Positions 2,969 to 60,903 of a DNA stretch of 64,000 nucleotides are shown here, one piece after another; positions within the stretch are counted from its first letter, which is position 1; every line of letters starts with the position of its first letter. Below the pieces are notes generated by a model. That model ran no database searches. It worked only from the letters and a program-made list of their open reading frames with translations, and was not told the origin of the DNA. The stretch is from Candidatus Micrarchaeota archaeon (GTDB lineage Archaea > Micrarchaeota > Micrarchaeia > Anstonellales > Bilamarchaeaceae): contig JBFMEZ010000029.1 in NCBI GenBank assembly GCA_040753215.1, positions 29,394-93,393 of the forward strand. Direction: 5' to 3'. The position numbers and the translations under genes are program-made.

Positions 2969-2978
2969 TATCCTACTT

Positions 2979-31250: not shown

Positions 31251-31294
31251 GTTCCCGGTTTCCCGTTTCCGGGAGCCGGTTGCGGGTGAATGCA

Positions 31295-32158: not shown

Positions 32159-32177
32159 GCTACCGTATTTTTGCGTG

Positions 32178-32657: not shown

Positions 32658-32667
32658 ATTTCATCAC

Positions 32668-33270: not shown

Positions 33271-33334
33271 TTGCCATCACTGATTACAACACGCAAGCGC
33301 AATATTTATATTCTCGTGGTTACATAATTACCAC

Positions 33335-34063: not shown

Positions 34064-34111
34064 TATCAAAAAACATAACTTTATAAGCGAATTGTTATAT
34101 AATTTGATACT

Positions 34112-35050: not shown

Positions 35051-35642
35051 AGAATTTGGAAAGATAGGCGCACGGATCAGGAAACCCGTCAGCATCTATC
35101 TTATCGGCGGATGTGCGATGTCTTTTAGAGGCCTAAAAGAAACAACCCGTGACGTCGATATCGTCTTCAAGGATAAGAGCGATTGTAAGATATTTTGCGA
35201 AGCTTTATTTGGAGCCCAGTATTACGAGCCCATAACCATCAAAACAGAGCACGAGCATTTGCATGCGATAAAGATGTATGAAAATAAAGATGGTTTTCAT
35301 TTGGATTTATTCATAAAACAGGTAATCCGAAAGCTTATGCTGTCCGAATCCATGGTCGCAAGAGCCAAATTCTATAAGAAATATGGCGGCTTGTCGGTTT
35401 ATTTGCTTTCAAAAGAGGATATTTTCCTTTTCAAGGGCTTGGCAAGTGAAGGCAGGGAAAGAGACCTGCCAGATATGCAGGTTTTATACCCAAACCTTGA
35501 CTGGAAAATGATACTGGAGGAATTGAAATCCCAGCATTTATCAGGGGATTTAAGAGAACTTTTCGCCAGGCGCCTTGCGGCATTCAACCAAAAATACAGG
35601 CTGGATGTTCCAATATTAAAAGATTTGAAAGGGAAACTATGA
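35016..35642 (+). CDS. minimal nucleotidyltransferase-fold protein, AbiEii-like toxin candidate (paralog of 55614-56282)
   Basis: GGCAMSFRGLKETTRDVDIVF matches G[GS]..D[IV]D nucleotidyltransferase motif; ORF 35007-35642. Confidence 0.45.
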   Translation: MEKQFNAQYIDEEFGKIGARIRKPVSIYLIGGCAMSFRGLKETTRDVDIVFKDKSDCKIFCEALFGAQYYEPITIKTEHEHLHAIKMYENKDGFHLDLFIKQVIRKLMLSESMVARAKFYKKYGGLSVYLLSKEDIFLFKGLASEGRERDLPDMQVLYPNLDWKMILEELKSQHLSGDLRELFARRLAAFNQKYRLDVPILKDLKGKL

Positions 35643-36970
35643 ACATAGAATCACATGCAAAACCTAGATACTTATACCACGGAAGCCCCCATGAAATCGA
35701 AGGCGATAAACTTTTTCCCGGGCAGGCCCGCTCCCTAGGCAACAATCCTGAAAACCTGCATTTCGGCGTTTATGCCACAGACATAAAAGATGCCGCCATC
35801 ACAATGGCGATAATCCGCTGCAGGGGCGTAGGCTCTTCCTGGTGCTCTTTTGGCGGCAAGCCCCCCTACGGCATAATTATAGAAGGTTGGCCCCAACAGG
35901 AATATTTCTACCTCTATACGCTCCCCTCAGCTACATTCGAAAAAACACACGAAAGAGGGGGGCAATGGGTCTCCCACGAACTAGTTAAACCCCTGAAGGT
36001 AGAGAAGCTCAGCGTTTCAGATTATCTTCATTTAGTCAGAAAAGCCACAGAAGAAGAGAAAAAAGACTGGTTCGAAAGATTCGGAAAGAAAATAAAAGAA
36101 GAGAGATCCAAACTCATAGAATCCCTCCTCAACAATTCCGTAGTCATAATTGACAAGCCCTGCGGCCCCACCTCCCACGAAGTCTCATCTTGGGTTCGGA
36201 AGCTCGCAGGCCTTAAGCGCACCGGCCACGCAGGCACCCTGGACCCCAATGTTTCCGGCGTCCTCCCAGTTGCCCTCGGCCGCGCCACCAAATTGCTCCA
36301 ATACATCGCCGGAAAGCGCAAATCCTACGTATGCATCGTCCGCTTCAAGAACGACCTCACAGATGCCCAGCTTGAATCCCTCTTTTCCAAATTCCGCGGC
36401 GAAATCACCCAAACCCCGCCCAAAATCTCCGCAGTGCGCAAAATCCCCCGCAAGCGCTTCGTCTACGAGCTCCGCGTCCTTGAAAGGGAAGGCAAAAAAG
36501 TCCTCTTCTACGCAGATGTGGACGCAGGCACCTATATCCGCACCCTCTGCTCTGACATGGGCAAGTTCACAGGAGGTTCCAGGATGGAGGAGCTGCGCCG
36601 CGTCGCTGTCGGCAACATTTCCGAAAAGGATGCAGTCACCCTCCAGGATTTCTCCGATGCCCTATACGCATACAGGGAGAGGAAAAACCCCTCCCTACTC
36701 CTTAGGATTCTCCACCCTCCCGAAGAGCTCATAGATGCGAAAAAGGTGTCCATCCGCCCCTCTGCAGCCGAAGCCCTCATGCACGGCGCCCAGCTCACCG
36801 CACCCGGGGTCGAATCCCTGGACGATTCCATCAGGAAGGAAGAAATAGTCAAAATCTACTGCGGAGACCGCTTCATCGGCATGGGAAAGACCATCTTTCC
36901 CGCCCGCAAGATAAAGGAAAGGACGCATGGATACGTAGTGAATATAGAGAGGATACACGCTACAGAATAA
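35639..36970 (+). CDS. cbf5: tRNA/rRNA pseudouridine synthase Cbf5 (H/ACA RNP) with ~100-130-aa non-canonical N-terminal extension
   Basis: VIIDKPCGPTSHEV..GHAGTLDPNVSGVLPVALGRATK TruB core and C-terminal PUA; no internal Met between extension and core. Confidence 0.8.
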   Translation: MNIESHAKPRYLYHGSPHEIEGDKLFPGQARSLGNNPENLHFGVYATDIKDAAITMAIIRCRGVGSSWCSFGGKPPYGIIIEGWPQQEYFYLYTLPSATFEKTHERGGQWVSHELVKPLKVEKLSVSDYLHLVRKATEEEKKDWFERFGKKIKEERSKLIESLLNNSVVIIDKPCGPTSHEVSSWVRKLAGLKRTGHAGTLDPNVSGVLPVALGRATKLLQYIAGKRKSYVCIVRFKNDLTDAQLESLFSKFRGEITQTPPKISAVRKIPRKRFVYELRVLEREGKKVLFYADVDAGTYIRTLCSDMGKFTGGSRMEELRRVAVGNISEKDAVTLQDFSDALYAYRERKNPSLLLRILHPPEELIDAKKVSIRPSAAEALMHGAQLTAPGVESLDDSIRKEEIVKIYCGDRFIGMGKTIFPARKIKERTHGYVVNIERIHATE

Positions 36971-36976: not shown

Positions 36977-37059
36977 CGCGAAGGGGGAGATTTGAACTCC
37001 CAATCCCTTGCGGGACATGCTTTCCAGGCATGCGCACTACCGGGTTATGCGACCTCCGC
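36977..37059 (-). tRNA. tRNA-Ser (anticodon GGA), type II with long variable arm, no encoded CCA
   Basis: Manual fold: acceptor GCGGAGG/CCTTCGC (one G-U), D-stem GCAT/GTGC, anticodon stem CATGC/GCATG loop CTGGAAA, variable arm TCCCGCAAGGGATT, T-arm GGGAG-TTCAAAT-CTCCC, discriminator G. Confidence 0.8.
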
Positions 37060-37420
37060 TCTCCTTTTTGCCATCGTGAACCTCGGCCTCTGCATCGCTG
37101 CGGCGATGTCTGGCGAAGTTCTGCGGAACTTCACCATCGCTCGGTGCAAAAAGGAGTCCAAAAACCCCAAGCACCTTCACGCTGGCGGCGAAACCGGAGC
37201 CCAAAAACCCCAGACAAAAGGGATTACTATAACGCTGCGTTTCCCTTTTATTCTTTTGCCCGTTAATTCGCGTTTTTTTCTCCCGTTTCTTCCCTCTTCC
37301 CCCGCCCAACACCCTTTTTAAGCATTTCTACGGAATATTCTCTCTACGCGTGTTCTTGCGTTCAGAGAATATGAGCCTTAACCCATTTCCTCTCGCGCGA
37401 GCCACGCATTTGGTGATTAT

Positions 37421-43416: not shown

Positions 43417-44039
43417 CTCCTCTTTTTTCTTAGTTCTTTTCCGTATCTTGTAAGCATAGCTTCGAAATTTACAAAATCATATCCCTTTACCTTATTATTC
43501 ATCCAGTATTCCCTTGTATCCTTTATCCCCAGCTTCCTCATCGCCTTCCTCGCAAGCGGCCCCATCCCCGGGTCCGCCTTTTCCCAAATCCCCCTCAATT
43601 GCCTGAGGAATATGTTCGCAGTCACCGGCCCGACCCCCGGAAACTCCATCAATCTTCTCTCCAAATCCCTCGCATCTTTCGCTTCTGCGTGTAGCCTATT
43701 CAAGTCTCCTCCATACTTTCCCAGCATCTTCATAACCGCCAGCAGTTTATCCGCAGTACTAAAATCATACCTCACATATCCCCCCTCGTCCAGGGAGTGC
43801 ACAAAATCCTCCCAGCCCGCCTTCCTCGCCTTCCCAAATTCCAGCAGCCCATCCTTCCCAAACTGAAAATAAGTCCTCACCGCAATGTTCTCCCCAATCC
43901 TCTTCCCAAAAAGATAAGAAGCGATAAACCACCTGAACAGCTCCTCCTTCCCCGCCCCTTCCAGCCTAATCCCGAGCTGCTCCGAATACTTCTTCCCATA
44001 TTTTTCCAGGAGTTTCCGTAGCTCCTTCTTTGAGAGCAT
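43413..44039 (-). CDS. HhH-GPD superfamily DNA glycosylase (MagIII/Mpg-like)
   Basis: 208 aa; ..FPGVGPVTANIFL.. helix-hairpin-helix motif. Confidence 0.5.
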   Translation of the reverse strand: MLSKKELRKLLEKYGKKYSEQLGIRLEGAGKEELFRWFIASYLFGKRIGENIAVRTYFQFGKDGLLEFGKARKAGWEDFVHSLDEGGYVRYDFSTADKLLAVMKMLGKYGGDLNRLHAEAKDARDLERRLMEFPGVGPVTANIFLRQLRGIWEKADPGMGPLARKAMRKLGIKDTREYWMNNKVKGYDFVNFEAMLTRYGKELRKKRR

Positions 44040-44089
44040 AAAAGAACTAGAAATAATAATCTATTAATACCCAAGCAATATATGTCCTT

Positions 44090-44824
44090 ATGGCAGAAGA
44101 GAAAAAGCTCATACATCCCATCCATCCAGTTATTTTCGAAGTAGACATAAATCACCTCTGCTGGTTCGTTGATATTACGGAAAAAAACCCAGACGCCACC
44201 CTCGTCTCCACAATGTCCACGGTGCATGGCGACCTAATCACCAACATAGTCCAGCTCACTTCCCCCAATCCCAGGGAGGATATAGAGCGCATAAAGAAGC
44301 ACCCGCTCGTAAAGAAGGTGGAAATCCTTGCGCTCGCCCCAACCTCCGCCCTACTCTCTGTCACCTCCAGCTACAAGGCGATGACCTACAAGATTCTACA
44401 TCAAACTAACGTTAAGCTTCTGGAGTCCCCGGTCACAAGGGGCGGCCTGGACTCCGAAATCCTCCTCGCCCCTTCCCACAAGGACATGGCAGACCTCTTG
44501 GGCCTCTGGAAGGAGCAGAAGGGCTACGCAGAAGTGAAACTGAAGCGCAAGCGCTACCTCAAGCCGGAGGATGTCCGGTCTCTGAGCGTATTCCGCACCG
44601 CCGGCTTCTTCGACCTCCAGTCCGCAAAGGAGCTAATCACCCCCAAGCAGTTGGAGATATTCCAGCTCGCCTGCGACTACGGCTACTACGAAACACCCAA
44701 GAAAATAAGCATAGAAGAGCTCGCCCAGCGCACCGGGCTCTCCCCATCCACCCTCGCCGAGCATTTGCGCAAGGCCGAGGCAAAGCTCCTTCCCGTCTTC
44801 TGGAAAGTCCTCCGGAAGCTCTGA
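44090..44824 (+). CDS. transcription regulator with C-terminal HTH_10 (bacterio-opsin-activator-like) domain
   Basis: 244 aa; ..ISIEELAQRTGLSPSTLAEHLRKAEAKLL.. Confidence 0.55.
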   Translation: MAEEKKLIHPIHPVIFEVDINHLCWFVDITEKNPDATLVSTMSTVHGDLITNIVQLTSPNPREDIERIKKHPLVKKVEILALAPTSALLSVTSSYKAMTYKILHQTNVKLLESPVTRGGLDSEILLAPSHKDMADLLGLWKEQKGYAEVKLKRKRYLKPEDVRSLSVFRTAGFFDLQSAKELITPKQLEIFQLACDYGYYETPKKISIEELAQRTGLSPSTLAEHLRKAEAKLLPVFWKVLRKL

Positions 44825-44959
44825 ATGGGCGCCTATGCTTTTGCCATCTACTTACAGGGGTATAAGTAACTTATGGGGGTATAAGCAAATGCCTTCATAT
44901 TTATAAATGCTGGCAGTCTAATGCCAAGTTATTTAAATATTATGTGGCACTATAATGCC

Positions 44960-46249
44960 ATGGAAACCCTCCTCACAGAGCAGAACCCCTGGTGGCACGA
45001 CAGGAACGCAATATCCGCGGACAGGGACATTGTGAATTACAGCAACGCAAGCTTCAAGATCCCCCTCCCGGCCCTGCGCGCCGAAAAGGGTGTCATCGTA
45101 ATCCGCGGCCCGAGGCAGGTCGGGAAAACCACGTTCCTCAAGCACCTTGCCGCAAAGGAGATAGGCCTTCTGGGCCCGAGGCAGGTCTTCTATTTCAGCG
45201 CGGAGAGCGGCTACCCTCTGGACAAGGCGCTCAGGGAATTCCTTGATTTCTCCGGCGAGGGCAAGAGGGTGCTTCTCATAGACGAGGCGACCGAAGACAA
45301 GGAATGGGCGACCAAGGTGAAATACCTGCTTGATTCGGGCAAGATGCGGGAAAGCGACCTCATCGTAATCACCGGCTCCTCTTCGGTGGACCTGAAAGCT
45401 GGGGCGGACAGGCTCCCCGGCCGCGGCGTGGAAGGCAACGAATTCCTGTTCTTTCCCTATTCGTTCCGGGACTTCTTTCCATCCAACCCGGAGGGCTGCG
45501 GCCTCGCGGATTTCAGCGAAAAGGCGGCGAAGGAACTCGCCCTTGACCCCCAAAACAGCATAATGTTTGCCAAGTACATCTCAAACGGCGGGCTCCCTTC
45601 GGTCTGGAACACCGAGCGCGAGCTCGCGAGGGAGAGGTACGCCAGGTGGATAGAAGGGTTCATCTCAAAGAACGGCCGCTCCATACTCTATGCCCGCGAG
45701 ATTCTCGCGAAGCTGGCGGAAAAAACAACGTTCGATTTCATGGGGCTGGCGAGGGAGACGAGCATCTCCTCCCACCACACGATAGAGGGCTACGTCTCCT
45801 TCTTCGAGGCCGGCATGCTCGGCAGGCTTCTCTACAACTACAACCTGGCCACCTCTTCGCCAGACCCGAAGAAGGAGAAGAAATTCGTCTTCATAGACCC
45901 GTTCATCTCCCAGATATTCATCAGCAAACGGGAGGAGCCCTTCCTCGTGGAGGATATAGTCGGCTCGCACCTCCTGCGCGCCTGCGACGAGCTCTATTTC
46001 CACAGGGACAAGAAGGGCGAGGTGGACTTTCTTTGCAAGGCAGGCGGGAAGCTGGTTCCCGTAGAGGTGAAGTGGCAGGAGAAGGTTGCCGAGTCGGATG
46101 CCCGGAACCTCAAAAAGTTCGGCGGCGGCTTCCTGCTCACAAAGGATTTCTCTGGCAGGTTCGGCAACGTGCTTGCAGTGCCGGTGCCCGTTTTCCTCAG
46201 GATGATTGGAAGAACGATGGCCATAAGGAAGCCACTAGGCCAATTCTGA
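44960..46249 (+). CDS. AAA-family ATPase with C-terminal DUF4143-like domain
   Basis: ..NPWW.. N-terminal signature, GPRQVGKTT Walker A, LLIDE Walker B; ORF 44921-46249. Confidence 0.65.
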   Translation: METLLTEQNPWWHDRNAISADRDIVNYSNASFKIPLPALRAEKGVIVIRGPRQVGKTTFLKHLAAKEIGLLGPRQVFYFSAESGYPLDKALREFLDFSGEGKRVLLIDEATEDKEWATKVKYLLDSGKMRESDLIVITGSSSVDLKAGADRLPGRGVEGNEFLFFPYSFRDFFPSNPEGCGLADFSEKAAKELALDPQNSIMFAKYISNGGLPSVWNTERELARERYARWIEGFISKNGRSILYAREILAKLAEKTTFDFMGLARETSISSHHTIEGYVSFFEAGMLGRLLYNYNLATSSPDPKKEKKFVFIDPFISQIFISKREEPFLVEDIVGSHLLRACDELYFHRDKKGEVDFLCKAGGKLVPVEVKWQEKVAESDARNLKKFGGGFLLTKDFSGRFGNVLAVPVPVFLRMIGRTMAIRKPLGQF

Positions 46250-46289
46250 ACGGTTGCCATGATGCTTTCCCTATTCAACCCGGCGCCTT

Positions 46290-46324
46290 TCCCTCGCCGT
46301 CTGGAAAGTCCTTCGGAAGCTCTA
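46290..46324 (+). pseudogene. remnant of the 3' end of a paralog of the HTH_10 regulator gene
   Basis: CTCGCCGTCTGGAAAGTCCTTCGGAAGCTCTAA (..LAVWKVLRKL*) vs 44792-44824 CCCGTCTTCTGGAAAGTCCTCCGGAAGCTCTGA (..PVFWKVLRKL*). Confidence 0.55.
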
Positions 46325-46384
46325 AAACCGCTCCACAGCGGCTCTAGTATTATCTACCACTTGCCTCGGATGTATATTCATGAA
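46324..46384 (+). promoter_or_regulatory. duplicated promoter/5'-leader block, copy 1 (ACAGCGGCTCTAnTAnTATCTACCAnTTGC..TATGTATA..ATGAA)
   Basis: ~60-nt block repeated at 47265-47326, each ending at the start codon of a different gene. Confidence 0.55.
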
Positions 46385-46742
46385 CTTAGATGCCAGAAAG
46401 CTAACCGGTCCGGACAAGCAGATTGCCGCAGGCCAGCAACAGCAGGGTCCCCGCAAAAGCGTATTCGCGAGGGCAGTTCCTATTGTAGCCCCTCCCTTAA
46501 TTACTGGTTTTCTGCTTGGTTTTGGAATAATGTATTTCTCGCCTTCCAAGCACAAGTCCGAAAGCCAACCAGCAGCCCCCCAGCCAACAAAGAGCATTCA
46601 TCCGGATTGCGATCCGGAGCATGCGCCTCCCGAATCGGGGCAGTATTATTTTGATGAGCGCGGTCGCGTTCATGAGGGTTACAGGATAGTTGACGGGCAC
46701 GGTCGCGTCATCCGCTTCTGCCCGCCCACCTGGGGCAGGTAG
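46380..46742 (+). CDS. small membrane-anchored hypothetical protein
   Basis: 120 aa; one TM (PLITGFLLGFGIMYF). Confidence 0.4.
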   Translation: MNLDARKLTGPDKQIAAGQQQQGPRKSVFARAVPIVAPPLITGFLLGFGIMYFSPSKHKSESQPAAPQPTKSIHPDCDPEHAPPESGQYYFDERGRVHEGYRIVDGHGRVIRFCPPTWGR

Positions 46743-46748
46743 ATTCCT

Positions 46749-47240
46749 ATGGGTATAACCATGAACACAAATATCAAAGACCTCAGCTACGAAGAGCGAT
46801 GCAGGAATGAGCACTTCATAGACAATGTCGGCGCTGATGAGCGCCTGTCCCAATCTTTTCGCCAAGAGGCGTGTGAGTTCGCTAAACAGAACGGAATAGC
46901 TCTCACAGATGAGGCACATGTGCGCCGCCTGTTCGCTTATCTGAGGGACCAGGGAAAAATAGAACGGCTGATAAAAAGGGAAGCCGGGGACTGGGTAGGG
47001 TTCAGCCGCTATGGCACGACCGGGGACGTCGAAAGGGCAGTCTCTCTCGCAAGGCACAAGCTCTATATGGTTAAGGACGGCCTTGACGCAAGAATGCTGT
47101 TTGACGACGCTTGGAGGTTTTTCGGCCATCCTTCCAACGATTTGGAACGTCCTTACCGGCTTCGGGACAGGTTCTCGCGCTGGCTGGACCGCAAGCTGCA
47201 ACAGATGGAAGCGGCGCCCGGCGGCAGAATCCGGCGCTAA
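46749..47240 (+). CDS. hypothetical protein
   Basis: 163 aa. Confidence 0.4.
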   Translation: MGITMNTNIKDLSYEERCRNEHFIDNVGADERLSQSFRQEACEFAKQNGIALTDEAHVRRLFAYLRDQGKIERLIKREAGDWVGFSRYGTTGDVERAVSLARHKLYMVKDGLDARMLFDDAWRFFGHPSNDLERPYRLRDRFSRWLDRKLQQMEAAPGGRIRR

Positions 47241-47264
47241 AACTCACGCCGATGCCTGCCAATA

Positions 47265-47326
47265 AACCCGCCGTACAGCGGCTCTACTAATATCTACCAA
47301 TTGCAGAGTATGTATAATTATGAATC
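47265..47326 (+). promoter_or_regulatory. duplicated promoter/5'-leader block, copy 2, driving aminotransferase-P1-P2 operon
   Basis: See 46324-46384. Confidence 0.55.
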
Positions 47327-48576
47327 ATAGTGCAAGATACATAAAGAGATCAAGCGCGGATATAATGGAAGTAGTTCGCGGATTTGATCGTTACCACAGA
47401 ATGTTCAGGGAGTATACACAAAGAGGTGGAAAGGTTGGAAGTTCTTTAGACCGGGGGGCATTCACCCGCCCTCACGAGGTATTGCCTGAAGAAGCACGTT
47501 TTCTTCTTGGTGAGGGGCGGAGGAGCGGATCTTTTGCATATGGTCCGGAAGCAGGAGATGACAAATTAAGAGAAAAAATAGCGGAGGTTGAAAATAGGCG
47601 CCATGGAACTTTCTATTCGCCAGATAACGTTGCTATGCTTCCAGGTGCTTGGTCAGGAATAGTATTTGCGATAGAAGAGATCCTGAATCTAAAAAATGGA
47701 AAGATGAATAAAGAAAAAATAGCAATTATAGGGCCAACTTTATACCTGATGTTTCAGCGCATTATCAGAGACTATGGCATCGAAGTAAATGCGTATGATT
47801 TTGTAGTCCCTGGGACAGAGCGCGTCCCAACAAGTATGGATGATATGGAGTGTGTCTTTGCCGATAGACCGAAAATGATTGTAATCACAAACCCAAACAA
47901 TCCGGATGGCAAATACTTTCCACCTGCTTTACTAAGAGAGGTTATTGAAAGGGCAGGCCAAGAAGGAATTTACATCATTATGGATGAGATTCAAAACTGT
48001 TTCCCCCGCCGTGCTCGTATAGGGTACAGTTCATGGATTCAAGCGCCAAACGTAGTCCGTATGGATTCTGCTTCAAAAGCGTATGCGCTTGCAGAATACA
48101 AGACCGGATGGATGATCGCAGAACCGAGGCTGCTTGGCGACAGAATGGATGGAATTATAAGTCGTATGAGCGGGATTATGGGTAATGCTCCAAGAGCCGC
48201 AAATACGGCGTTACTTTACTTGCTTAATAGGGAATTGGAAAGAATTGCGACAGGAGTAGACTATTTATCATCTGTTCATGCAAAATTAACCAGAAAAGAA
48301 GAATTTGTCCTGGCTCATTTGGCAGCCATGGACAACATCATAGAAATAATTTTGCCACACGCCTGCATCAACCTTACGGTGCAGGTTGCATTTGATGGGA
48401 CCGATATGGAGCTAGCGAAAATATTGATGGAGAACGGAACACTTCTGATGCCTGCTAGCGGATATGGCCATAGCATAAGTCCGCCCACCCTGCGCATCAC
48501 TTTTGCAGAAAGGCAAGAAAAAGTGGAGCATTCCATGGCTGTTTTAGAGCGTGTACTTGGAGGTTATGTTTCATGA
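47320..48576 (+). CDS. PLP-dependent aminotransferase (class I/II fold)
   Basis: 418 aa; AT-rich; ..DSASKAYALAEYKTGWM.. Lys region; ATGA overlap with next gene. Confidence 0.6.
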   Translation: MNHSARYIKRSSADIMEVVRGFDRYHRMFREYTQRGGKVGSSLDRGAFTRPHEVLPEEARFLLGEGRRSGSFAYGPEAGDDKLREKIAEVENRRHGTFYSPDNVAMLPGAWSGIVFAIEEILNLKNGKMNKEKIAIIGPTLYLMFQRIIRDYGIEVNAYDFVVPGTERVPTSMDDMECVFADRPKMIVITNPNNPDGKYFPPALLREVIERAGQEGIYIIMDEIQNCFPRRARIGYSSWIQAPNVVRMDSASKAYALAEYKTGWMIAEPRLLGDRMDGIISRMSGIMGNAPRAANTALLYLLNRELERIATGVDYLSSVHAKLTRKEEFVLAHLAAMDNIIEIILPHACINLTVQVAFDGTDMELAKILMENGTLLMPASGYGHSISPPTLRITFAERQEKVEHSMAVLERVLGGYVS

Positions 48577-50147
48577 GCGATATCCTTCCCTATGATATCC
48601 TGAACAAGGGCTGGAAAGCCACCTGCAAAATCCTCTTAGGCGAGGAAATAGGCGAGCTCAGCGATTACAGGGAATGGCTCTCGGAGTTCCTTCCTCCCAC
48701 CGGAAAAACCCATTCCCACCTCTCCGGAAAGGAAGTAACCCTCGCCATGGATGCCTACTGCCCAAAATCCAGGTTCATCTCTTCCGATGAAATAAAGGAA
48801 AAGAAGCTCGCCCCCCTCTCCATAGACCAGGTAAAGGACATAGATTCCATCGCAGAAGCAATCTCAGAAAGATGGGAATACACCGGAAACAGGGTCCTCG
48901 GCAATTCCTCTTCTGTAGATTCCTCCGACCTGGTAATGGATTCCCAGTTCGTCTCCGGCTCCACCAACATCCAGCAGTCCTCCTACGTTTATTCCTCTGC
49001 CCTCGCCCGCATGGGCAGCAAATACATCTACGGCTCCCACGGCTTCGCCCAGGGCGAGTTCCTCATCCGCCACTGCGCGGGCTTCAACCTCAAGCGCCAG
49101 TTCGAGACCCACTTCATAACCGACAGCAGTGACCTCTATTTCGCATTCAACTGCATAGGCTGCAGCGAGCTCCTCTTCTCCTTCTTCCAGCGCAACAAGC
49201 GCCATTGCATAGGAAATCTCCAGCTTCCCAAGGAGAAATATCTCTCCCTCAAGAAGAAGCTCCTGTCCGAAGTGGCCTCCGAGCTTAAGAGAAACAAGCG
49301 CTTCCCATCCCTTTTCCACCTGGTTCCGAACAGCAAGCCTCGCCATTCCCTTTCCATCCCGCAATCCAGGCCCAAAGAGGACATGCCCGCAATAGACAAA
49401 GCGTTCTCCTCCGCCTTCAAGGTCATTTTCAGAAAGGATGCGCAATCCGTATTCCCATACGAAAAATGGCTCTCCCGCCAGCTCCTCGGCATAAGCGAGA
49501 TAAAGTCCCCCTTCGGCCACAAGACCTGTTTCCCAGAGACCAAGGCAATGTTCCTCTTCTTCACCGCCCCCCGCAGCCGCATGGTCTCCCTTGCCGAAGG
49601 GATGGAACTCGGAAAGCGCCACCTCGAAGAGCCGCAGCTCTCCTCCCTTTCCAGCATAATAGATAATCTGGGTGAAATCGGCTATTTCACAGCCGAATTC
49701 CTGGACGGCCCGGTCACCAACGCCATAAGCACGCCCATCGCCTACTATTCCTCCAACGTCTACAAGGCGCTGGACGCAACCCATTCCGAATACTCGGGCC
49801 TCTCCTCCCAGGTGCTGAACTCAAAATACTGCTTCGGCGGCTTCCGCATATTGGAGTCCCAGTTCTGCCTCAACTGCTACAATTCCCTCAATCTTTCCCG
49901 TTGCCTGGAAGTGGACACTTCCGAGAAATGCTCCGACTCCCTCTTCTGCCACAACTCCGAAGGGCTCGCGGAATGCATGTTTTGCTTCAATCTTAAGGGG
50001 AAGAGGTATGCAATAGGCAATTCGCCCCTTCCGCCGCAGGAATATCTCAAGGTGAAGGATTCCCTTCTTTCCCAGATGGCCGATGAACTGGAGCGCAACC
50101 ACTTGCTCCCCTACGACATATTCAACATCGGCTGTGCAGGTGCATGA
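48573..50147 (+). CDS. Cys-containing internally duplicated repeat protein, family member P1 (unknown function)
   Basis: 524 aa; N-term WKATCKILLGEEIGEL..EWLSE; halves end in C.GCSE..FSFNxRxKRHxIGN..LPxxKY and CxN....C.MFCFNxKxKRYAIGNSxLP motifs; C-term DIFNIGC. Confidence 0.5.
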   Translation: MSDILPYDILNKGWKATCKILLGEEIGELSDYREWLSEFLPPTGKTHSHLSGKEVTLAMDAYCPKSRFISSDEIKEKKLAPLSIDQVKDIDSIAEAISERWEYTGNRVLGNSSSVDSSDLVMDSQFVSGSTNIQQSSYVYSSALARMGSKYIYGSHGFAQGEFLIRHCAGFNLKRQFETHFITDSSDLYFAFNCIGCSELLFSFFQRNKRHCIGNLQLPKEKYLSLKKKLLSEVASELKRNKRFPSLFHLVPNSKPRHSLSIPQSRPKEDMPAIDKAFSSAFKVIFRKDAQSVFPYEKWLSRQLLGISEIKSPFGHKTCFPETKAMFLFFTAPRSRMVSLAEGMELGKRHLEEPQLSSLSSIIDNLGEIGYFTAEFLDGPVTNAISTPIAYYSSNVYKALDATHSEYSGLSSQVLNSKYCFGGFRILESQFCLNCYNSLNLSRCLEVDTSEKCSDSLFCHNSEGLAECMFCFNLKGKRYAIGNSPLPPQEYLKVKDSLLSQMADELERNHLLPYDIFNIGCAGA

Positions 50148-50148
50148 T

Positions 50149-51726
50149 ATGGACACATACGAAGCCCTCAACCGCTCCTGGAAATCCCTCTGCCGCCTTC
50201 TTCTGGGCGAAGAGATAGGCGAGATGAAAGAATACGAGAAATGGCTCACCCAATACCTTGAGCCCATGCGCGTGGAGCGCTCTGCAATCTCAGGCAAGGA
50301 TGTATATGTAGCGGTTCCAGAATACTGCAAAGATGCAAAATTCATCTCCCTAGAAGACACTCAATCTTCCAAGCCCGCCCCCCTCTCCATCAACGAAATC
50401 AAGGACATAGACTCAATAATGGAATCCCTCCGCGAGCGCTTCCTCTACTCCGGCAACGTCATCCTTTCCAATTCCCGCGATGTTTCCCAGAGCACCAACA
50501 TCCAGAACTCCTTCCACGTGCTCCGCTCCAACTTCATCTGGGATTCCGAATACATTGGCTACTCCTCCATGGTCCGCGGCGGCAAGCATCTTATTGGAGT
50601 AAACAACGACGCCTACTCCTCATTCATGCTCAGCAGCATGGAAACCTACAAGAACAGCCGCTGCCTGGAGCTGTGGGAATCCTTCGACTGCACCGAATCC
50701 TATTTTGTGTTCGGCTCATGGAACTGCCAGAACATCCTTTTCTCCTTCAACCAGCGCAACAGGCGCAACGTAATCGGAAACATCGAGCTCCCGCGCGACA
50801 AATTCCTTTCCCTCAAGAGCAAGTTAATAGAAGAGATGCGCGATGAGCTGAAGCGCAACAAATCCCTGCCTTCTCTCTTTGAAATCGCATCTGCCAACCT
50901 GAGGAGATCGAAAATACCCGCCGGCTTCCATACTGAAGAGATGCAGGAAGGCACGGACAAGGGCATAATAGAGGACGCATTCCGCAAGACCACGAAAATA
51001 GTCTTCGGGAAAGAGCTGCAGGACATGGATGCCTATGGGGATTGGCTCCTGCGCCACGTGATAAAAACGAAACCCGCTGTTTCCGCAGCCACGGGCAGGC
51101 CCACCTCCCTGAGCTCACACGCCCCTTACAAATTCTATCCAAGGAACCGTCTCGTGAAGATGAATGAGGCAGTGAAGCTCGGCGAAATCCTCCATATGGA
51201 TGAATCTGACATCCACTCGCTCGATTCCCTCAAGGACTCCCTCTGGAAAATCGCGTTCTTCTGCTCCGAGATAATGCTCGGCGAAAACAAAAACCTGATT
51301 GGAGTGATGCTCGCCAACCAGTCCAGCAACTGCTACAATGGTTCGGTCTATTCCTATGATGAATACTGCGGCTTCTCCTTCTGGCCAAGGGACTCCAAAT
51401 ATATGTTCGGCTCATCTATGGCCTTCTCCTCCAATTTCTGCATCAACGCCTACAATTCCCTCAACCTCTCGCGCTGTTTTGAGGTGGACGGCTGCAGCAG
51501 CTCCTCCGACCTCTACTTCTCCCACAACTGCGAGAACGCGCAGGACGCGATGTTCTGCTTCAATTCCAAGAATCTTAAGCACTCGATAGGCAATTCCGCG
51601 CTCCCGCCCGATAAATACAAGTCCCTGAAATCCTCGCTCCTCTCCCAAATCTCAGACGAGCTTGAGAAGACCAAATCCCTCAGATGGGACATCTTCAACC
51701 TGGGCTGTCCAAAGGTGCCATCCTGA
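50149..51726 (+). CDS. Cys-containing repeat protein, family member P2
   Basis: ~525 aa; same architecture as P1; start overlapping P1 stop. Confidence 0.5.
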   Translation: MDTYEALNRSWKSLCRLLLGEEIGEMKEYEKWLTQYLEPMRVERSAISGKDVYVAVPEYCKDAKFISLEDTQSSKPAPLSINEIKDIDSIMESLRERFLYSGNVILSNSRDVSQSTNIQNSFHVLRSNFIWDSEYIGYSSMVRGGKHLIGVNNDAYSSFMLSSMETYKNSRCLELWESFDCTESYFVFGSWNCQNILFSFNQRNRRNVIGNIELPRDKFLSLKSKLIEEMRDELKRNKSLPSLFEIASANLRRSKIPAGFHTEEMQEGTDKGIIEDAFRKTTKIVFGKELQDMDAYGDWLLRHVIKTKPAVSAATGRPTSLSSHAPYKFYPRNRLVKMNEAVKLGEILHMDESDIHSLDSLKDSLWKIAFFCSEIMLGENKNLIGVMLANQSSNCYNGSVYSYDEYCGFSFWPRDSKYMFGSSMAFSSNFCINAYNSLNLSRCFEVDGCSSSSDLYFSHNCENAQDAMFCFNSKNLKHSIGNSALPPDKYKSLKSSLLSQISDELEKTKSLRWDIFNLGCPKVPS

Positions 51727-55193: not shown

Positions 55194-55241
55194 TCGGATA
55201 TAGTCGCTCGTTCTTGAATCGTAAATCCTATCGGATTTCAG

Positions 55242-55315
55242 TATCGCTGCGGCGATATCTGGCAGAATTCTGCGGAATTCCGCCATCCGATAGCGGGCAA
55301 AGTTTCCGGATTTTG
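55242..55315. repeat. composite palindromic intergenic module, copy 2 (TATCGCTGCGGCGATA .. GGCAGAATTCTGCGGAATTCCGCC ..)
   Basis: Matches 1950-2062 module. Confidence 0.6.
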
Positions 55316-56287: not shown

Positions 56288-58246
56288 CTAGCGCATCGCG
56301 TGATAATTCCCGAATATATCCTTCCTAGCATCATAAGCCAGCTTCCGGGGCTTGTCCGCATCCACATCTATTTTCTCCCCCGGCTCGTCAATCATCGGGT
56401 CAGGAAAGCCGGGCTTTTTGTCCGACGGGGGCTTCTCTTCAGGCCCGGCCCCTTTCCCTTGCGCTTGCCCTTCTCCCTCATCCTTAGTGGGCTCATGCAG
56501 CCCCCAGCTTTTCATGTCCACTATCCTCATCTTCATCGGGAGCATGTAATTCCTTCCGTCATACAGCCGCACAATGCACTCTCTCTGGTTGAGCCGTATG
56601 AACATCTCCTTCTTGGATTCTTCCAGCTCCGCCTGCGCGCGGTGCTTCTTGAAGTACTCTTCCAGCTTGATTTCCATCACCGAGCTCAGCATCGCGGCAT
56701 CCTGCCTGTTAAGCTTGAACGCAATCAGATTCCTGGTGTTCGACACTATCCCATCCAGCACCTCCTTGCTCAGCTGCCCAAGGTACTGGCACGAAAGGTA
56801 CGCATAAAGGTTGAATTTCCTCGTCTCCGAGAGTATGTCCCTCGTAACCCTCGTCTCCACTCTCGGGAACTCATCCACCACCAATATTGTGGGCTTGTCC
56901 ATCAGCTTGCCCGTAATCGCCAGTATGTACATCTGGTTGATTATCGCCCCTGCAAGGAAACTAATCATCCTCCTCCCGAAGAAGTGCGGGTCGAAGCTCA
57001 CCACCGTAATCCTGTTCTTCTCCAGAAGCTCCGCAAGCCTCTCCAGCTTCTTCTCCTTCCCCAGGTACAATTGGTATTCCCCTATGAAATTCAGTATGGG
57101 CAGTATCGCGGAGTTGAAGTGGTGTATGTAAATATCATTATACTCCTCGTCAAAGAACCTCTTCACCTCCTCGTTGTCGCACATGCTCACGAACTCCGCC
57201 TTCGCCGTCGCATCAGTGAGCAGCGCGCTTACGTTCATCAAATCTAGCTTGTCTATTGAGCTGAGCAGATGCACCGCGTAGAAAAGCACCCTCTCCGAAT
57301 ATTTGTTCTCCTGCCCTATAGATGATGCAATCAGTTGCGAAATCAATTGCGTAAGCATAGGCGTCTTCTGCCCGCCCACATCCAGCGGCTCTATGTAATT
57401 CTTTACAAAATCCACCATCTTCGTCCCCTTGAAGGTTTTGGTAAACTCCCCATGCGGGTCGATCACTATTATCCTGGCCCCATCCTTGTACTTCGCCTCA
57501 ATCGCCTTCAGCAGCACGTAGAGCGCCTTGGTCTTCCCGGAGCCCGAAGTCCCCGCAACCAGCGTATGCTGCATCGGGTCGTAATTATCCACGCCCATCG
57601 TCACCCCGCTCTCCTCAAACACCGGGAACCTTGAGCTAGTATGTATCCTTTTCGGAATCGGGTCCAGCACCTCTATGTATATGGAGGAATTCTCCTCCAG
57701 GTTTATCCTGAAGAACTTCTCCGGGTCGGTCACCAGCACGCTCCTCTTCCTGCCCTTCTCGTCAATCGCATCCCCTGCTGCCACGAACCCGCCCAGCACC
57801 TTGCTCAGGTCCATCGCCAGCTCCTCCACATTCTCCTTCAGCATGAAATCCAGGAAACCATACGCCCCCCCGTTGATCTTGTAGAACTTTGAGAGGACGG
57901 CCGCCTTCCCCTTCACTTGTTCCATCTCCCCCAGCTCTGCGAACCTGAACGGAAACACCAGCGCCGCCATGTCCTGCAGCCCCTTCTTCTCCCTTATATA
58001 GAATTTCACGGTGTTGTTCTTCCTCCGCACAATGAGCCTAAACGCATTGAGCGAAAGCACCCCCGAGAAATCCAGGAAGCCGAAAAGCGGAAGCCTCGCC
58101 TTCACCAGCTGCTCGAAGAACGCCCTCATGTCCTCCTCATCCACCTTCTCCGAGTAGAGGTGCATCTCGCGGACAGCCAGCCTCCTGGCTGCCTCCTCCT
58201 CCCTGCTCAGGGTAATCTTCATTCCTGTTGGCAAGCGCAATTCCAT
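56288..58246 (-). CDS. HerA/FtsK/VirB4-superfamily P-loop ATPase (DUF87-like)
   Basis: 652 aa; AGTSGSGKTKAL Walker A ~aa 235, ILVVDEF Walker B; disordered acidic C-terminus. Confidence 0.6.
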   Translation of the reverse strand: MELRLPTGMKITLSREEEAARRLAVREMHLYSEKVDEEDMRAFFEQLVKARLPLFGFLDFSGVLSLNAFRLIVRRKNNTVKFYIREKKGLQDMAALVFPFRFAELGEMEQVKGKAAVLSKFYKINGGAYGFLDFMLKENVEELAMDLSKVLGGFVAAGDAIDEKGRKRSVLVTDPEKFFRINLEENSSIYIEVLDPIPKRIHTSSRFPVFEESGVTMGVDNYDPMQHTLVAGTSGSGKTKALYVLLKAIEAKYKDGARIIVIDPHGEFTKTFKGTKMVDFVKNYIEPLDVGGQKTPMLTQLISQLIASSIGQENKYSERVLFYAVHLLSSIDKLDLMNVSALLTDATAKAEFVSMCDNEEVKRFFDEEYNDIYIHHFNSAILPILNFIGEYQLYLGKEKKLERLAELLEKNRITVVSFDPHFFGRRMISFLAGAIINQMYILAITGKLMDKPTILVVDEFPRVETRVTRDILSETRKFNLYAYLSCQYLGQLSKEVLDGIVSNTRNLIAFKLNRQDAAMLSSVMEIKLEEYFKKHRAQAELEESKKEMFIRLNQRECIVRLYDGRNYMLPMKMRIVDMKSWGLHEPTKDEGEGQAQGKGAGPEEKPPSDKKPGFPDPMIDEPGEKIDVDADKPRKLAYDARKDIFGNYHAMR

Positions 58247-58480
58247 TATCTCACGTTCATATACTTATTGAAACGGGGATATATTCCTAGTCCCGCTCCA
58301 TAGCGGGTTTCACCATCCTCCAGCTTTCCGTCGTTGCCCTTCCCATGCCAATTCCGCGCGTTCCTTCTATTTAAGAATTCACTACTATGCGCGTATACTA
58401 GCAGTAACGAAAAAGGAGGTGCGCCCAGAGAACCCATTACCACCATGCTTTCCATCCAGCGATTTTCGTATTAATACAAT

Positions 58481-58501
58481 TGTGGTATCGTAGCGATACC
58501 A
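58481..58501. promoter_or_regulatory. perfect palindrome GTGGTATCG-TAG-CGATACCAC upstream of TrmB paralog 2 (candidate operator)
   Basis: 37 nt upstream of ATG 58538; GTGGT..ACCAC arms also flank 33305-33325 palindrome upstream of TrmB paralog 1. Confidence 0.45.
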
Positions 58502-58537
58502 CTACATATTAAAACAGCCCCGCCCCACTCATTACCC

Positions 58538-59308: not shown

Positions 59309-59309
59309 C

Positions 59310-60857: not shown

Positions 60858-60872
60858 TCGCAGCAGCTTTAA

Positions 60873-60903
60873 AAATTCACTACTATATAATCATAATAGT
60901 GAA
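60873..60903. promoter_or_regulatory. palindrome TTCACTACTATATAATCATAATAGTGAA overlapping GTG start of TrmB paralog 3 (TATA box + candidate operator)
   Basis: AATTCACTACTAT also at 58372-58384 upstream of TrmB paralog 2. Confidence 0.45.

What the first reader, a model, noticed from the sequence alone, without database searches (positions are those of the whole stretch)
44790..47330. Gene-end remnant and duplicated promoter block around the DUF4143 ATPase gene
The last ~33 nt of the HTH_10 regulator gene (..PVFWKVLRKL*) reappear, diverged but in frame (..LAVWKVLRKL*), at 46290-46324, just after the ATPase gene. This is the same kind of gene-end duplication seen with the hairpin elements. Immediately downstream, a ~60-nt promoter/leader block occurs twice: at 46324-46384 driving a small membrane protein, and at 47265-47326 driving the aminotransferase-P1-P2 operon.
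Basis: seen in the sequence. Interest (0 to 1): 0.55.

Follow-up and report, generated by a model that had tools for sequence, protein, structure and literature searches.

The report
ATPase gene insertion scar beside a regulon promoter
In this Micrarchaeota genome, a 1.5-kb gene for a candidate anti-virus ATPase-nuclease landed in the last 27 bases of a regulator gene and left a duplicated gene end; the "duplicated promoter" beside it is a conserved palindrome-plus-TATA promoter shared by several operons, so the feature is real and informative but of a known kind.

Summary
Both observations are real. The last 27 nt of the HTH_10 regulator gene (44799-44825) recur at 46300-46326 (25/27 identical; none expected by chance). 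They flank a 1,474-nt insert carrying one AAA_14/DUF4143 ATPase-nuclease gene with its own promoter. Only 27 nt are demonstrably homologous, not about 33. In all nine related Micrarchaeota genome loci checked, the HTH_10 stop codon is followed by something else; in six it abuts the palindrome block, and none has the ATPase. The closest ATPase relatives sit in unrelated contexts. So the ATPase is a lineage-specific insertion and the remnant is its footprint. No integrase, transposase or terminal repeats were found. The way the duplication arose is inferred: repair at the edge of the palindrome.

The 62-nt block (46323-46384, 47263-47324; 79%) is not a recent local duplication. It is a conserved module: palindrome CCGCT..AGCGG, a TATA-like ATAT(A/C)TA 9 nt on, and an ATG 51-53 nt from the palindrome start (leaderless-type). 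A third copy drives the DUF87 ATPase gene (58246-58306, minus strand). Block A is 97% identical to its counterpart in relative L011, and relative L012 also has both blocks. It is probably the operator-promoter of the adjacent HTH_10 regulator. Interest is modest.

The parts
44090..44824 (+). HTH_10 family regulator gene (244 aa), intact; C-terminus ..LLPVFWKVLRKL*
   Evidence: Pfam HTH_10 E=1.8e-19. 69 homologs, all Micrarchaeota-type; C-terminal consensus KLLPILWKVLRK.
44799..44825 (+). Left copy of the 27-nt direct repeat (last 8 codons, stop TGA and one more base of HTH_10)
44826..46299 (+). Inserted segment, 1,474 nt, absent from all related HTH_10 loci
   Evidence: Empty sites in L011, L012, L013, L018 and L094. 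No terminal inverted or direct repeats inside it.
44826..44897 (+). Left flank of the insert, origin unknown; contains two tandem 19-nt units ACTTAYRGGGGTATAAGYA (44850-44887)
   Evidence: Not shared with the L006 cassette. No match in any fetched locus. Not a diverged copy of the block.
44898..44959 (+). The ATPase's own promoter: TTTATAAA (44900-44907), palindrome TGGCAGTCTAATGCCA (44911-44926), TATTTAAATA (44930-44939), palindrome TGGCACTATAATGCCA (44945-44960, overlapping the ATG)
   Evidence: Conserved with L006, L007 and L010 from 44898 onward. Same palindrome-TATA-palindrome layout in L006 and, triplicated, in L010.
44960..46249 (+). AAA_14 + DUF4143 (PD-(D/E)XK) ATPase-nuclease gene, 429 aa; PADLOC candidate defence family PDC-S01
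   Evidence: Pfam AAA_14 5e-23 and DUF4143 3e-11. PDC-S01 models down to 3e-23. Walker A GPRQVGKTT, Walker B DE, and D356/E369/K371 are invariant or nearly invariant in 15 homologs. GC3 0.79, like neighbouring native genes.
46250..46299 (+). Right flank of the insert, origin unknown; its last 9 nt CCCTCGCCG (46291-46299) match HTH_10 44751-44759
46300..46326 (+). Right copy of the 27-nt repeat: orphan remnant of the HTH_10 gene end (..WKVLRKL, TAA)
   Evidence: It is contiguous with block B exactly as the real gene end is in L012, L013 and L094.
46323..46384 (+). Block B: palindrome CCGCTCCACAGCGG (46328-46341), TATA-like TTATCTA (46350-46356), ATG at 46380
   Evidence: Orthologous to the HTH_10-to-membrane-protein intergenic region of L012 and L094.
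46380..46742 (+). 120-aa predicted membrane protein
   Evidence: 60% identical homolog in the same position in L012. Homolog start in L094.
46745..46770 (+). Partial third copy of the block's 3' part (GTATAACCATGAAC), at the start of the orphan gene 46761-47240 (159 aa)
   Evidence: Exact 14-mer shared with block B of L012 and L094. The gene has no homolog in the 5.8-billion-sequence protein database.
47263..47324 (+). Block A: palindrome CCGCCGTACAGCGG (47268-47281), TATA-like ATATCTA (47290-47296), ATG at 47320
   Evidence: 96.7% identical to L011 7730-7790, where it drives P1 directly; 92% identical to the second block of L012.
47320..51726 (+). Operon behind block A: class I/II aminotransferase (47320-48576; GC3 0.39, foreign), P1 (48573-50147), P2 (50083 or 50146 to 51726)
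58246..58306 (-). Third full copy of the promoter module: palindrome CCGCTATGGAGCGG (58306-58293), ATATATC TATA-like box, ATG at 58246 of the DUF87/HerA-VirB4-like ATPase gene (56288-58246)
   Evidence: The same module lies upstream of the DUF87 orthologs in L011, L012 and L013.

Best explanation
Ancestral layout (shown by comparison). In this Micrarchaeota lineage the HTH_10 regulator gene ran straight into a compact promoter module. The stop codon is followed 1-4 nt later by the palindrome CCGCT(C)..(G)AGCGG. Nine nt after that comes the TATA-like box ATAT(A/C)TA. An ATG lies about 27 nt after the box, so transcripts should be leaderless or nearly so. The same module heads several units of a variable island lying between HTH_10 and a DUF87 ATPase gene: the small membrane protein, the aminotransferase-P1-P2 operon, and the DUF87 gene on the other strand.

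Function of the block (inferred). The palindrome is the binding site of a dimeric regulator, most likely the adjacent HTH_10 protein, so these units are co-regulated. That would explain why the block is far better conserved (92-97%) than the flanking genes (72-85%), and why it exists in several copies.

The insertion (shown). After this genome split from its sequenced relatives, a 1,474-nt piece of native-like DNA was inserted into the last 27 nt of the HTH_10 reading frame. It carries one self-contained gene: an AAA+ ATPase fused to a PD-(D/E)XK nuclease, with its own TATA boxes and two 16-nt palindromic operators. The 27 nt were duplicated. The left copy completes an intact HTH_10 gene. The right copy stayed attached to the palindrome and promoter as a non-coding remnant.

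How the duplication arose (inferred). The insert has no recombinase, no terminal repeats and no recurring attachment sequence, and one edge of the duplication lies 2 nt from the palindrome. I think the duplication came from host repair at that palindrome. That would be either fill-in of a staggered break with capture of a DNA fragment, or replication template-switching that re-entered 27 nt (possibly at least 75 nt) upstream. A dedicated mobile-element enzyme seems less likely.
For: Repeat statistics.

Empty sites. L011 (HTH_10 89% aa) reads ..GGAAGCTCTAAA-CCCGCCGTACAGCGG.. then P1. L012 (88%) and L094 (about 88%) read ..CTCT(A/G)AA-(G/A)CC(A/G)CTCCA(G/C)AGCGG.. then the membrane-protein homolog. 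L013 and L018 are similar. None has the ATPase.

ATPase mobility. The cassette core 44898-46254 is 77% identical at DNA level to L006, where it sits 13 nt upstream of an rtcA start. Other relatives (L007, L010) are in further unrelated contexts.

No mobility machinery. No integrase or transposase in neighbouring ORFs. No terminal inverted or direct repeats. GC3 of 0.79 resembles native genes.

Promoter module. Twenty-eight instances in the window and about 20 relatives have T5 (24/28), A10 (28/28) and the box A23 T24 A25 T26 (A/C)27 T28 A29 in 22-27 of 28. Palindrome-to-ATG spacing is 51-53 nt for P-family genes and 60 nt for DUF87 genes among the closest relatives, 57-63 nt overall.

Conservation. 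Block A is 96.7% identical to L011, against 84.8% for HTH_10 and 71.7% for P1-P2. Tandem block copies arose independently in L012, L014 and L017.

Not a terminator. The hairpins are weak (-7 kcal/mol, z about -1.8 to -2.0) and no T-run follows.
Against: Nothing here shows transcription starts or protein binding. Assigning the palindrome to the HTH_10 protein rests on adjacency only.

The motif instances were collected with a regular expression that fixes CCG...CGG, so those positions are invariant by construction. The loose palindrome pattern alone is only 2-fold enriched over shuffles (130 vs 65).

The mechanism of duplication is not determined. A 27-nt repeat overlapping a gene's 3' end is also what an integrase att site looks like. 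The two copies already differ at 2 of 27 positions, so their original identity cannot be verified.

The other ATPase copies available are at most 82% identical in protein (77% in DNA), so absence of flanking repeats there is weak evidence. The donor locus of the insert, including its 72-nt and 50-nt flanks, was not found. Most archaea lack classical end-joining, which makes simple 'fill-in and ligate' less certain than template switching.
Confidence: 0.7

Rival explanations
1. The ATPase segment is the decayed remainder of a site-specific integrative element. A tyrosine or serine recombinase integrated a circular element whose attP mimicked the 3' end of HTH_10. The 27-nt repeats are attL and attR, and the recombinase gene and the rest of the element were later deleted or acted in trans.
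For: Direct repeats of 20-60 nt that overlap the 3' end of a target gene and reconstitute it are the classic signature of archaeal integrated elements; integration into protein-coding genes is documented (PMC8371274). The repeats here fit in size and position.
Against: No recombinase lies in or near the insert. The insert is only 1.47 kb with one gene. The 27-mer is absent from viral contigs and occurs in the fetched loci only as HTH_10 gene ends. Other copies of the cassette show no flanking repeats. Codon composition is native-like.
Confidence: 0.15
2. The remnant is not a target duplication. A single 2.4-kb piece (ATPase + truncated HTH_10 end + block B + membrane protein + orphan gene; 44826-47262) came from another strain and was inserted in front of block A of an L011-like genome. 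The gene-end fragment travelled with the donor's block B.
For: The left copy resembles the L011/L094 allele (CTCCGG) and the right copy the L012 allele (CTTCGG). Block A lies directly after HTH_10 in L011. An orphan TAAA precedes block A at 47263.
Against: L012 already has HTH_10-block B-membrane protein-block A without any ATPase, so that arrangement is explained more simply as ancestral to this genome and L012. The donor would itself need an ATPase joined to a truncated HTH_10 end, which only moves the problem. One or two diagnostic bases cannot assign alleles.
Confidence: 0.1
3. The palindrome in the block is the transcription terminator of the HTH_10 gene, or an RNA hairpin in the mRNA, rather than a protein-binding operator. 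The rest of the block is an ordinary promoter.
For: It lies 1-4 nt after the HTH_10 stop codon in the closest relatives and can form a 5-7-bp hairpin. Some symmetric changes occur: pair 6/9 is C-G in 10 and G-C in 5 instances; pair 4/11 is T-A in 3.
Against: The same palindrome, at the same distance from the TATA-like box, occurs where no gene ends upstream: block A after the orphan gene, and the DUF87 promoters on the opposite strand. No T-run follows it. The hairpins are weak (z about -1.8 to -2.3 in the window copies). Many instances are asymmetric (13 of 28 at pair 6/9), as expected for a protein site, with a conserved half-site CCGCT.
Confidence: 0.1
4. The repeats are chance similarity or a metagenome assembly artefact.
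For: The source is a metagenome-assembled genome.
Against: 0 of 100 shuffles give a second match to either repeat. The longest exact shared run is 13 nt, too short for a k-mer mis-join. The remnant plus block B matches the true gene-end junction of independent assemblies L012, L013 and L094.
Confidence: 0.02

Closest known systems
att-site direct repeats flanking integrated archaeal elements (tyrosine-recombinase integration into the 3' part of tRNA or protein genes; review PMC8371274)
   Same: A short direct repeat (27 nt) at both ends of the inserted DNA. One copy overlaps the 3' end of the target gene, and an intact gene is kept.
   Different: No recombinase gene, no other element genes, a 1.5-kb single-gene insert, and no attP-like copy found elsewhere. 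The repeat abuts a palindrome rather than containing a dyad-symmetric core.
Target-site duplications of transposable elements (IS elements, 2-14 bp; casposons, 14-15 bp; from general knowledge)
   Same: A duplication of target sequence flanking an insertion.
   Different: At 27 nt (possibly at least 75 nt originally) it is much longer. There are no terminal inverted repeats and no transposase. Other copies of the cassette lack flanking repeats.
PADLOC candidate defence system PDC-S01 = AAA_14 ATPase fused to a DUF4143 PD-(D/E)XK domain (COG1373; PMC3424549, PMC12988326)
   Same: Domain architecture, catalytic motifs and HMM matches. It is a single self-contained gene with patchy distribution and variable neighbourhood, as expected of accessory or defence genes.
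   Different: Anti-virus activity of PDC-S01 is itself unvalidated (PMC12988326). Nothing here tests function. A self-contained promoter with paired operators and an insertion footprint have not, to my knowledge, been described for this family.
Archaeal promoters with a palindromic regulator site just upstream of BRE/TATA (for example the TGM site of TrmB-family regulators, Lrp/Ptr2-type UAS, and the Bat/HTH_10 activator of the bop regulon in Halobacterium; from general knowledge, not tested)
   Same: A dyad-symmetric site at fixed distance upstream of a TATA-like box, repeated at several operons next to the regulator's own gene, with leaderless-type spacing to the ATG.
   Different: The motif CCGCT(C)nn(G)AGCGG and its regulon (P-family proteins, a DUF87 ATPase) are specific to Micrarchaeota and undescribed. 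This HTH_10 protein lacks the GAF/PAS/BAT domains of Bat.
Hairpin elements elsewhere in this window (3072-3211, about 21070-21184, 31380-31455)
   Same: An insertion inside the terminal part of a gene, accompanied by duplication of that gene terminus (12-98 nt), so that one intact gene copy survives.
   Different: They duplicate gene starts, are 76-140 nt long and non-coding, and share a G-rich hairpin plus T-run. None of that sequence is in the ATPase insert.

Membership tests
Integrated element bounded by att sites (site-specific recombination) | Direct repeats at both ends, one within the target gene, with the target gene reconstituted | tested here: met
   27-nt repeats at 44799-44825 and 46300-46326; HTH_10 ORF intact.
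Integrated element bounded by att sites (site-specific recombination) | Integrase or recombinase gene in or next to the element | tested here: not met
   The only ORF with a family hit in the insert is AAA_14/DUF4143. Neighbouring ORFs give no recombinase hit.
Integrated element bounded by att sites (site-specific recombination) | The same attachment sequence on a free element (attP) or at other integrated copies | tested here: inconclusive
   The 27-mer is absent from viral contigs and, in the 95 loci, is present only as HTH_10 gene ends. Other cassette copies have no flanking repeats, but they are at most 77% identical in DNA.
Transposon or insertion sequence | Transposase gene and terminal inverted repeats | tested here: not met
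   No transposase. The terminal inverted-repeat test gave score 6 against a shuffle mean of 7.1.
AAA_14-DUF4143 ATPase (COG1373; PADLOC PDC-S01) | N-terminal AAA_14 P-loop domain followed by a DUF4143 PD-(D/E)XK domain, with catalytic motifs | tested here: met
   Both Pfam domains score above their gathering cut-offs. Seven PDC-S01 models match. Walker A, Walker B and D..E.K residues are conserved.
AAA_14-DUF4143 ATPase (COG1373; PADLOC PDC-S01) | Protects against viruses | not testable with these tools
   The family is only a candidate defence gene; validation is pending (PMC12988326).
Archaeal TATA promoter giving a leaderless mRNA | AT-rich TATA-like box centred about 26-27 nt upstream of the start codon or transcription start | tested here: met
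   ATAT(A/C)TA at positions +23 to +29 of the module and ATG at +52 to +54; the box positions are conserved in 22-27 of 28 instances.
Archaeal TATA promoter giving a leaderless mRNA | Mapped transcription start at the ATG | not testable with these tools
   No transcriptome data are available.
Operator/UAS of the adjacent HTH_10 regulator | Conserved dyad-symmetric site at fixed distance from the TATA box, at several promoters, co-occurring with the regulator gene | tested here: met
   The motif follows the HTH_10 stop in L011-L015, L017-L019, L021, L022, L030, L040 and L094. It recurs at P-family and DUF87 promoters.
Operator/UAS of the adjacent HTH_10 regulator | Binding by the HTH_10 protein | not testable with these tools
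   Needs EMSA, DAP-seq or ChIP.
Intrinsic terminator | Stable GC-rich hairpin followed by a T-run | tested here: not met
   Window + strand copies have 5-bp stems at -7.1 kcal/mol (z about -1.8 to -2.0); the minus-strand copy has a 6-bp stem at -11.8 kcal/mol (z -2.3). No T-run follows on the + strand.
Integron-like cassette array | Integron integrase plus attI/attC recombination sites bounding promoterless cassettes | tested here: not met
   No integrase. The ATPase has its own promoter. The repeated blocks are promoters with fixed spacing to start codons.

The most novel reading that the evidence does not exclude
The 27-nt duplication (possibly at least 75 nt originally) and the 12-98-nt gene-start duplications around the three hairpin elements in the same window are products of one lineage-specific, recombinase-free insertion process. 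An example would be replication template-switching or staggered breakage at palindromes. Such a process inserts DNA into gene termini while duplicating the terminus, so the gene survives. It would be an undescribed route of gene gain and element spread in compact DPANN genomes. A stronger variant is that the ATPase-nuclease (PDC-S01) makes the staggered cut itself and so mobilises its own gene.
Probability: 0.12. Interest if true: 0.65.

Novelty: new member of a known kind. Interest (0 to 1): 0.33.

Why it matters
The locus gives a clean, datable example of how a compact, symbiont-type archaeal genome gains an accessory gene without losing function. The insertion sits inside a gene's last codons, and a short duplication rescues both the gene and the neighbouring promoter. 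It shows that a member of a candidate defence family reported among the most common in prokaryotes (PDC-S01) travels as a self-contained unit of promoter, operators and gene. As a by-product it defines a conserved operator-promoter module and a putative HTH_10 regulon. That regulon covers P-family proteins of unknown function and a HerA/VirB4-like ATPase in Micrarchaeota, organisms with no genetics and almost no known regulatory sites. This gives a concrete, testable handle on a hypervariable island that may be involved in host interaction.

Tried and rejected
1. Extending the remnant beyond 27 nt: local alignments of 20-60 nt upstream are at chance level. Only an abutting 9-mer is suggestive.
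2. The left flank of the insert as a decayed copy of the promoter block, which would imply a duplication of about 90 nt: not significant (p = 0.25-0.6).
3. Terminal inverted or direct repeats of the insert: none.
4. Flanking repeats at other ATPase cassettes (L006, L007, L010): none of 16 nt or more apart from chance matches.
5. Closer relatives or a donor locus. The metagenome scan with the ATPase returned only 3 loci, none closer than 62%. Viral contigs gave none. Plasmid and phage records hold only relatives at 26% identity or less. The insert flanks match nothing fetched.
6. The 27-mer on viral contigs: absent.
7. Rfam and tRNA scans: only tRNA-Ser at 36977-37059; nothing in the region.
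8. Sigma-70 and intrinsic-terminator scans: not informative for an archaeon.
9. Homologs of the orphan gene 46761-47240, to trace its previous promoter context: none exist in the database.
10. PDB sequence search for P1 and the ATPase: no hits.
11. An exact-sequence look-up of the window's own HTH_10 protein found no indexed contig. The source MAG is known only from the protein table.

Full report
OBSERVATION

The repeat finder on 44000-48000 gives 44794-44825 vs 46295-46326 (32 nt, 88%) and 46323-46384 vs 47263-47324 (62 nt, 79%). Degenerate patterns built from each repeat occur exactly twice in the 64-kb window, with 0 expected in 100 dinucleotide-preserving shuffles.

The secure homology of the gene-end copy is 27 nt. 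The left copy is 44799-44825, TCTGGAAAGTCCTCCGGAAGCTCTGAA. The right copy is 46300-46326, with CTT for CTC and TAA for TGA, so 25 of 27 positions match. Upstream of that the two sequences are no more alike than shuffled sequence (p = 0.2-0.46). Only ..WKVLRKL* is homologous.

One oddity remains. The 9 nt abutting the remnant (CCCTCGCCG, 46291-46299) also occur in HTH_10 exactly 39 nt (13 codons) upstream of the core, with a post-hoc probability of about 9e-4. This could mean the duplicated stretch was originally at least 75 nt and later lost 39 nt. It could also be chance.

WHAT THE GENES ARE

The window comes from a Candidatus Micrarchaeota MAG. Proteins 100% identical to the window's are recorded on a 108-kb NCBI contig.

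- 44090-44824 encodes a 244-aa HTH_10 regulator.
- 44960-46249 encodes a 429-aa AAA_14 + DUF4143 protein.
- DUF4143 is a PD-(D/E)XK nuclease-fold family of unknown function (PMC3424549).
- The protein matches seven PADLOC PDC-S01 models. PDC-S01 is a widespread, still unvalidated candidate defence gene described as an ATPase fused to a PD-(D/E)XK domain (PMC12988326).
- Walker A, Walker B and the D..E.K residues are invariant or nearly so across 15 homologs, so the gene looks functional.

Downstream lie a 120-aa membrane protein, an orphan 159-aa ORF (no homolog), and a class I/II aminotransferase. Two paralogous 520-550-aa proteins follow (P1, P2; no Pfam or PDB match). Further on are a radical-SAM enzyme, a methyltransferase, an Lrp-type regulator, and a DUF87/HerA-VirB4-like ATPase on the other strand.

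THE ATPASE IS AN INSERTION

I fetched HTH_10 orthologs with their flanks from public assemblies.

- L011 (89% aa): HTH_10 -> block -> P1 ortholog -> P2 ortholog <- DUF87.
- L012 (88%): HTH_10 -> block -> membrane-protein homolog -> block -> P2 ortholog -> another P gene <- DUF87.
- L013 (84%): HTH_10 -> block -> P2 ortholog <- DUF87.
- L018/L004 (76%): HTH_10 -> block -> P genes <- DUF87.
- L094 (about 88%): the stop codon TGA is followed at once by AACCGCTCCACAGCGGCTC.., identical to the window's block B, and then by the membrane-protein homolog.

None of these has the ATPase, and neither do L001-L003 or L095. The window's remnant plus block B therefore reproduces base for base the true gene-end/promoter junction of the relatives (alignment). 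The window's real HTH_10 end is followed instead by foreign sequence from 44826.

The ATPase's closest relatives lie elsewhere:
- L006 (82% aa, 77% DNA over 44898-46254): between a small ORF and the start of an rtcA gene, only 13 nt away.
- L007-L009 (62%): next to a second DUF4143 gene and a reverse-transcriptase gene.
- L010 (63%): in another unrelated context.

DNA homology with all of them begins at 44898-44900. The portable unit is therefore the promoter, its operators and the gene: TTTATAAA, palindrome TGGCAGTCTAATGCCA, TATTTAAATA, palindrome TGGCACTATAATGCCA overlapping the ATG, then the ORF. The 72 nt to its left (with two tandem 19-nt units) and the 45 nt to its right (46255-46299) match nothing I could fetch.

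The insert has no terminal inverted or direct repeats. There is no recombinase or transposase in or near it. Its GC3 (0.79) resembles HTH_10, P1, P2 and DUF87 (0.72-0.76), unlike the clearly foreign aminotransferase (0.39). The 2/27 divergence between the copies, and the absence of the insertion from relatives whose HTH_10 genes are 82-85% identical in DNA, place the event after the split from them.

HOW THE DUPLICATION AROSE (INFERENCE)

Three mechanisms produce a direct repeat around an insert:
1. Site-specific or Campbell-type integration of a circle carrying the 27-mer.
2. Fill-in of a staggered break.
3. Replication template-switching that re-enters upstream of the point of departure.

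The first fits the size and position of the repeat (PMC8371274). However, there is no recombinase, no attP on viral contigs, and no repeat at other cassette copies.

I favour a repair or replication origin, for four reasons. The right edge of the duplicated segment lies 2 nt from the palindrome of the promoter block, a plausible site of fork stalling or structure-specific nicking. The portable core is embedded in unrelated filler sequence. The composition is native-like. The same window holds three other insertions (hairpin elements) that sit inside gene termini and are flanked by duplications of variable length: 98 nt, about 84-95 nt, and 12-13 nt. This is a judgement, not a demonstration.

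A further rival is import of ATPase + remnant + block B + two genes as one piece in front of block A. It is less parsimonious because L012 already has block B-membrane protein-block A without the ATPase.

THE BLOCK IS A CONSERVED REGULON PROMOTER

The two + strand copies are each much closer to orthologs than to each other.
- Block A is 96.7% identical to the HTH_10-P1 intergenic region of L011 and 92% identical to the second block of L012.
- Block B with the membrane-protein gene is 76% identical to L012.
- For comparison, HTH_10 is 82-85% and P1/P2 72-83% identical in DNA.

L012 has both blocks in the same order, so the duplication is older than the ATPase insertion. L014 and L017 have independent tandem copies.

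A third full copy lies on the minus strand at 58306-58246, in front of the DUF87 gene. A partial copy (GTATAACCATGAAC) starts the orphan gene at 46761.

Across the window and about 20 Micrarchaeota loci I collected 28 instances. The consensus is CCG(C/T)T(C/G)(T/C)A(C/G)A(G/A)CGG - C(A/T)(C/T)TA - 3 nt - ATAT(A/C)TA. The ATG lies 51-53 nt from the palindrome start for P-family genes. For DUF87 genes it lies 60 nt away among the closest relatives and 57-63 nt overall. The outer CCG/CGG are fixed by my search pattern. T5, A10, A19 and the seven-base AT box are not, and they are conserved in 22-28 of 28.

The box centre is about 27 nt upstream of the ATG, the usual TATA-to-start distance in archaea (general knowledge), so the mRNAs should be leaderless. 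The DUF87 version would have a leader of about 8 nt.

The palindrome forms only a weak hairpin (-7 kcal/mol, z about -1.8 to -2.0) with no T-run. It occurs where no gene ends upstream and is often asymmetric. It therefore looks like a protein-binding site rather than a terminator. Because it follows the HTH_10 gene in genome after genome, down to 35% protein identity (L040), the HTH_10 protein is the obvious candidate binder. That step is inference.

COMPARISON WITH KNOWN SYSTEMS AND VERDICT

The footprint resembles att repeats of integrated elements and target-site duplications of transposons. It fails the defining tests for both: there is no recombinase, transposase, terminal repeats or recurrent att. 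The ATPase is a regular member of the AAA_14/DUF4143 (PDC-S01) family. The block follows the familiar archaeal design of regulator palindrome, TATA box and leaderless start, with a new motif and a new putative regulon.

The refinements are that the remnant is 27 nt, the block is a conserved multi-copy regulon promoter rather than a local duplication, and the link to the hairpin elements is only an analogy.

The finding is real and well explained, and its kind is known, so interest is modest. The residual novelty lies in a possible shared, recombinase-free mechanism that duplicates gene termini during insertion in this lineage.

Noticed in passing
window 2974-3309; 21048-21200; 31284-31549: A non-coding hairpin element (AAAAACGCGG(G/A)GG..CCCCCCATTTTT..CATTCTGACCC..; inserts about 3072-3211, 21070-21184, 31380-31455) sits inside the 5' end of three genes. 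Each is flanked by a duplicated gene START (98 nt at 82%; 12-13 nt; about 84-95 nt at 95%). The upstream copy is truncated and followed by a terminator-like hairpin plus T-run; the downstream copy is the intact gene behind an AT-rich stretch. The motif is absent from all 95 fetched loci.
   Followed up: partly
window 1970-2019, 37089-37138, 55238-55287: A second repeat family (GCATCGCTGCGGCGATGTCTGGCAGAATTCTGCGGAATTCCGCCATC) with two short stem-loops. One copy lies next to tRNA-Ser (36977-37059, minus strand) and one just after the Lrp-type regulator gene.
   Followed up: no
window 48573-51726 and 58538-63234; loci L011-L022, L030: Four paralogous 520-570-aa 'P-family' proteins (N-terminus ..Y..LNKGWK.TC..LLGEE; repeated Cys-rich MFCFN.K..R..IGN units) have no Pfam, NCBIfam, PADLOC or PDB match. 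They form an island between the HTH_10 gene and a DUF87/HerA-VirB4-like ATPase, and its gene content differs in every relative examined.
   Followed up: partly
window 47320-48576: The aminotransferase has GC3 0.39 against 0.72-0.79 for its neighbours. It sits exactly between block A and the P1 start codon (ATGA stop/start overlap at 48573-48576). In L011 the same block drives P1 directly, so this is a second, foreign insertion at a precise gene boundary.
   Followed up: partly
window 46761-47240: The 159-aa ORF has no homolog among 5.8 billion proteins apart from its own record. Its start carries a 25-nt partial copy of the promoter block (14-mer GTATAACCATGAAC identical to block B of L012 and L094).
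   Followed up: yes
window 58482-58540: The TrmB-like regulator operon (58538 onward: TrmB-like, P3, 250-aa protein, P4) has its own perfect palindrome GTGGTATCG-TAG-CGATACCAC (58482-58502), followed by an AT-rich box and an ATG 56 nt from the palindrome start. This is the same architecture as the HTH_10 module with a different operator.
   Followed up: no
L006 1765-1800: In the closest ATPase relative, the ATPase stop codon lies 13 nt before a TTG start of an RNA 3'-phosphate cyclase (rtcA-like: LIEIDGSQGEGGGQIVR..). The stored gene call placed an ORF on the opposite strand there.
   Followed up: no
L010 1302-1428; L007 5871-9329: L010 has three tandem 34-nt copies of the ATPase operator/TATA unit (CATGGCAATGGAATGCCAAGGTATTTAAATATAT). 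L007 has two divergently oriented DUF4143 ATPase genes next to a reverse-transcriptase (RVT_1) gene.
   Followed up: no
window 32000-36000: A low-GC stretch (0.40-0.49 against about 0.54 for the window) encodes TrmB- and ArsR/MarR-type regulators. It lies just upstream of the TruB/PUA gene and tRNA-Ser and may be another acquired segment.
   Followed up: no
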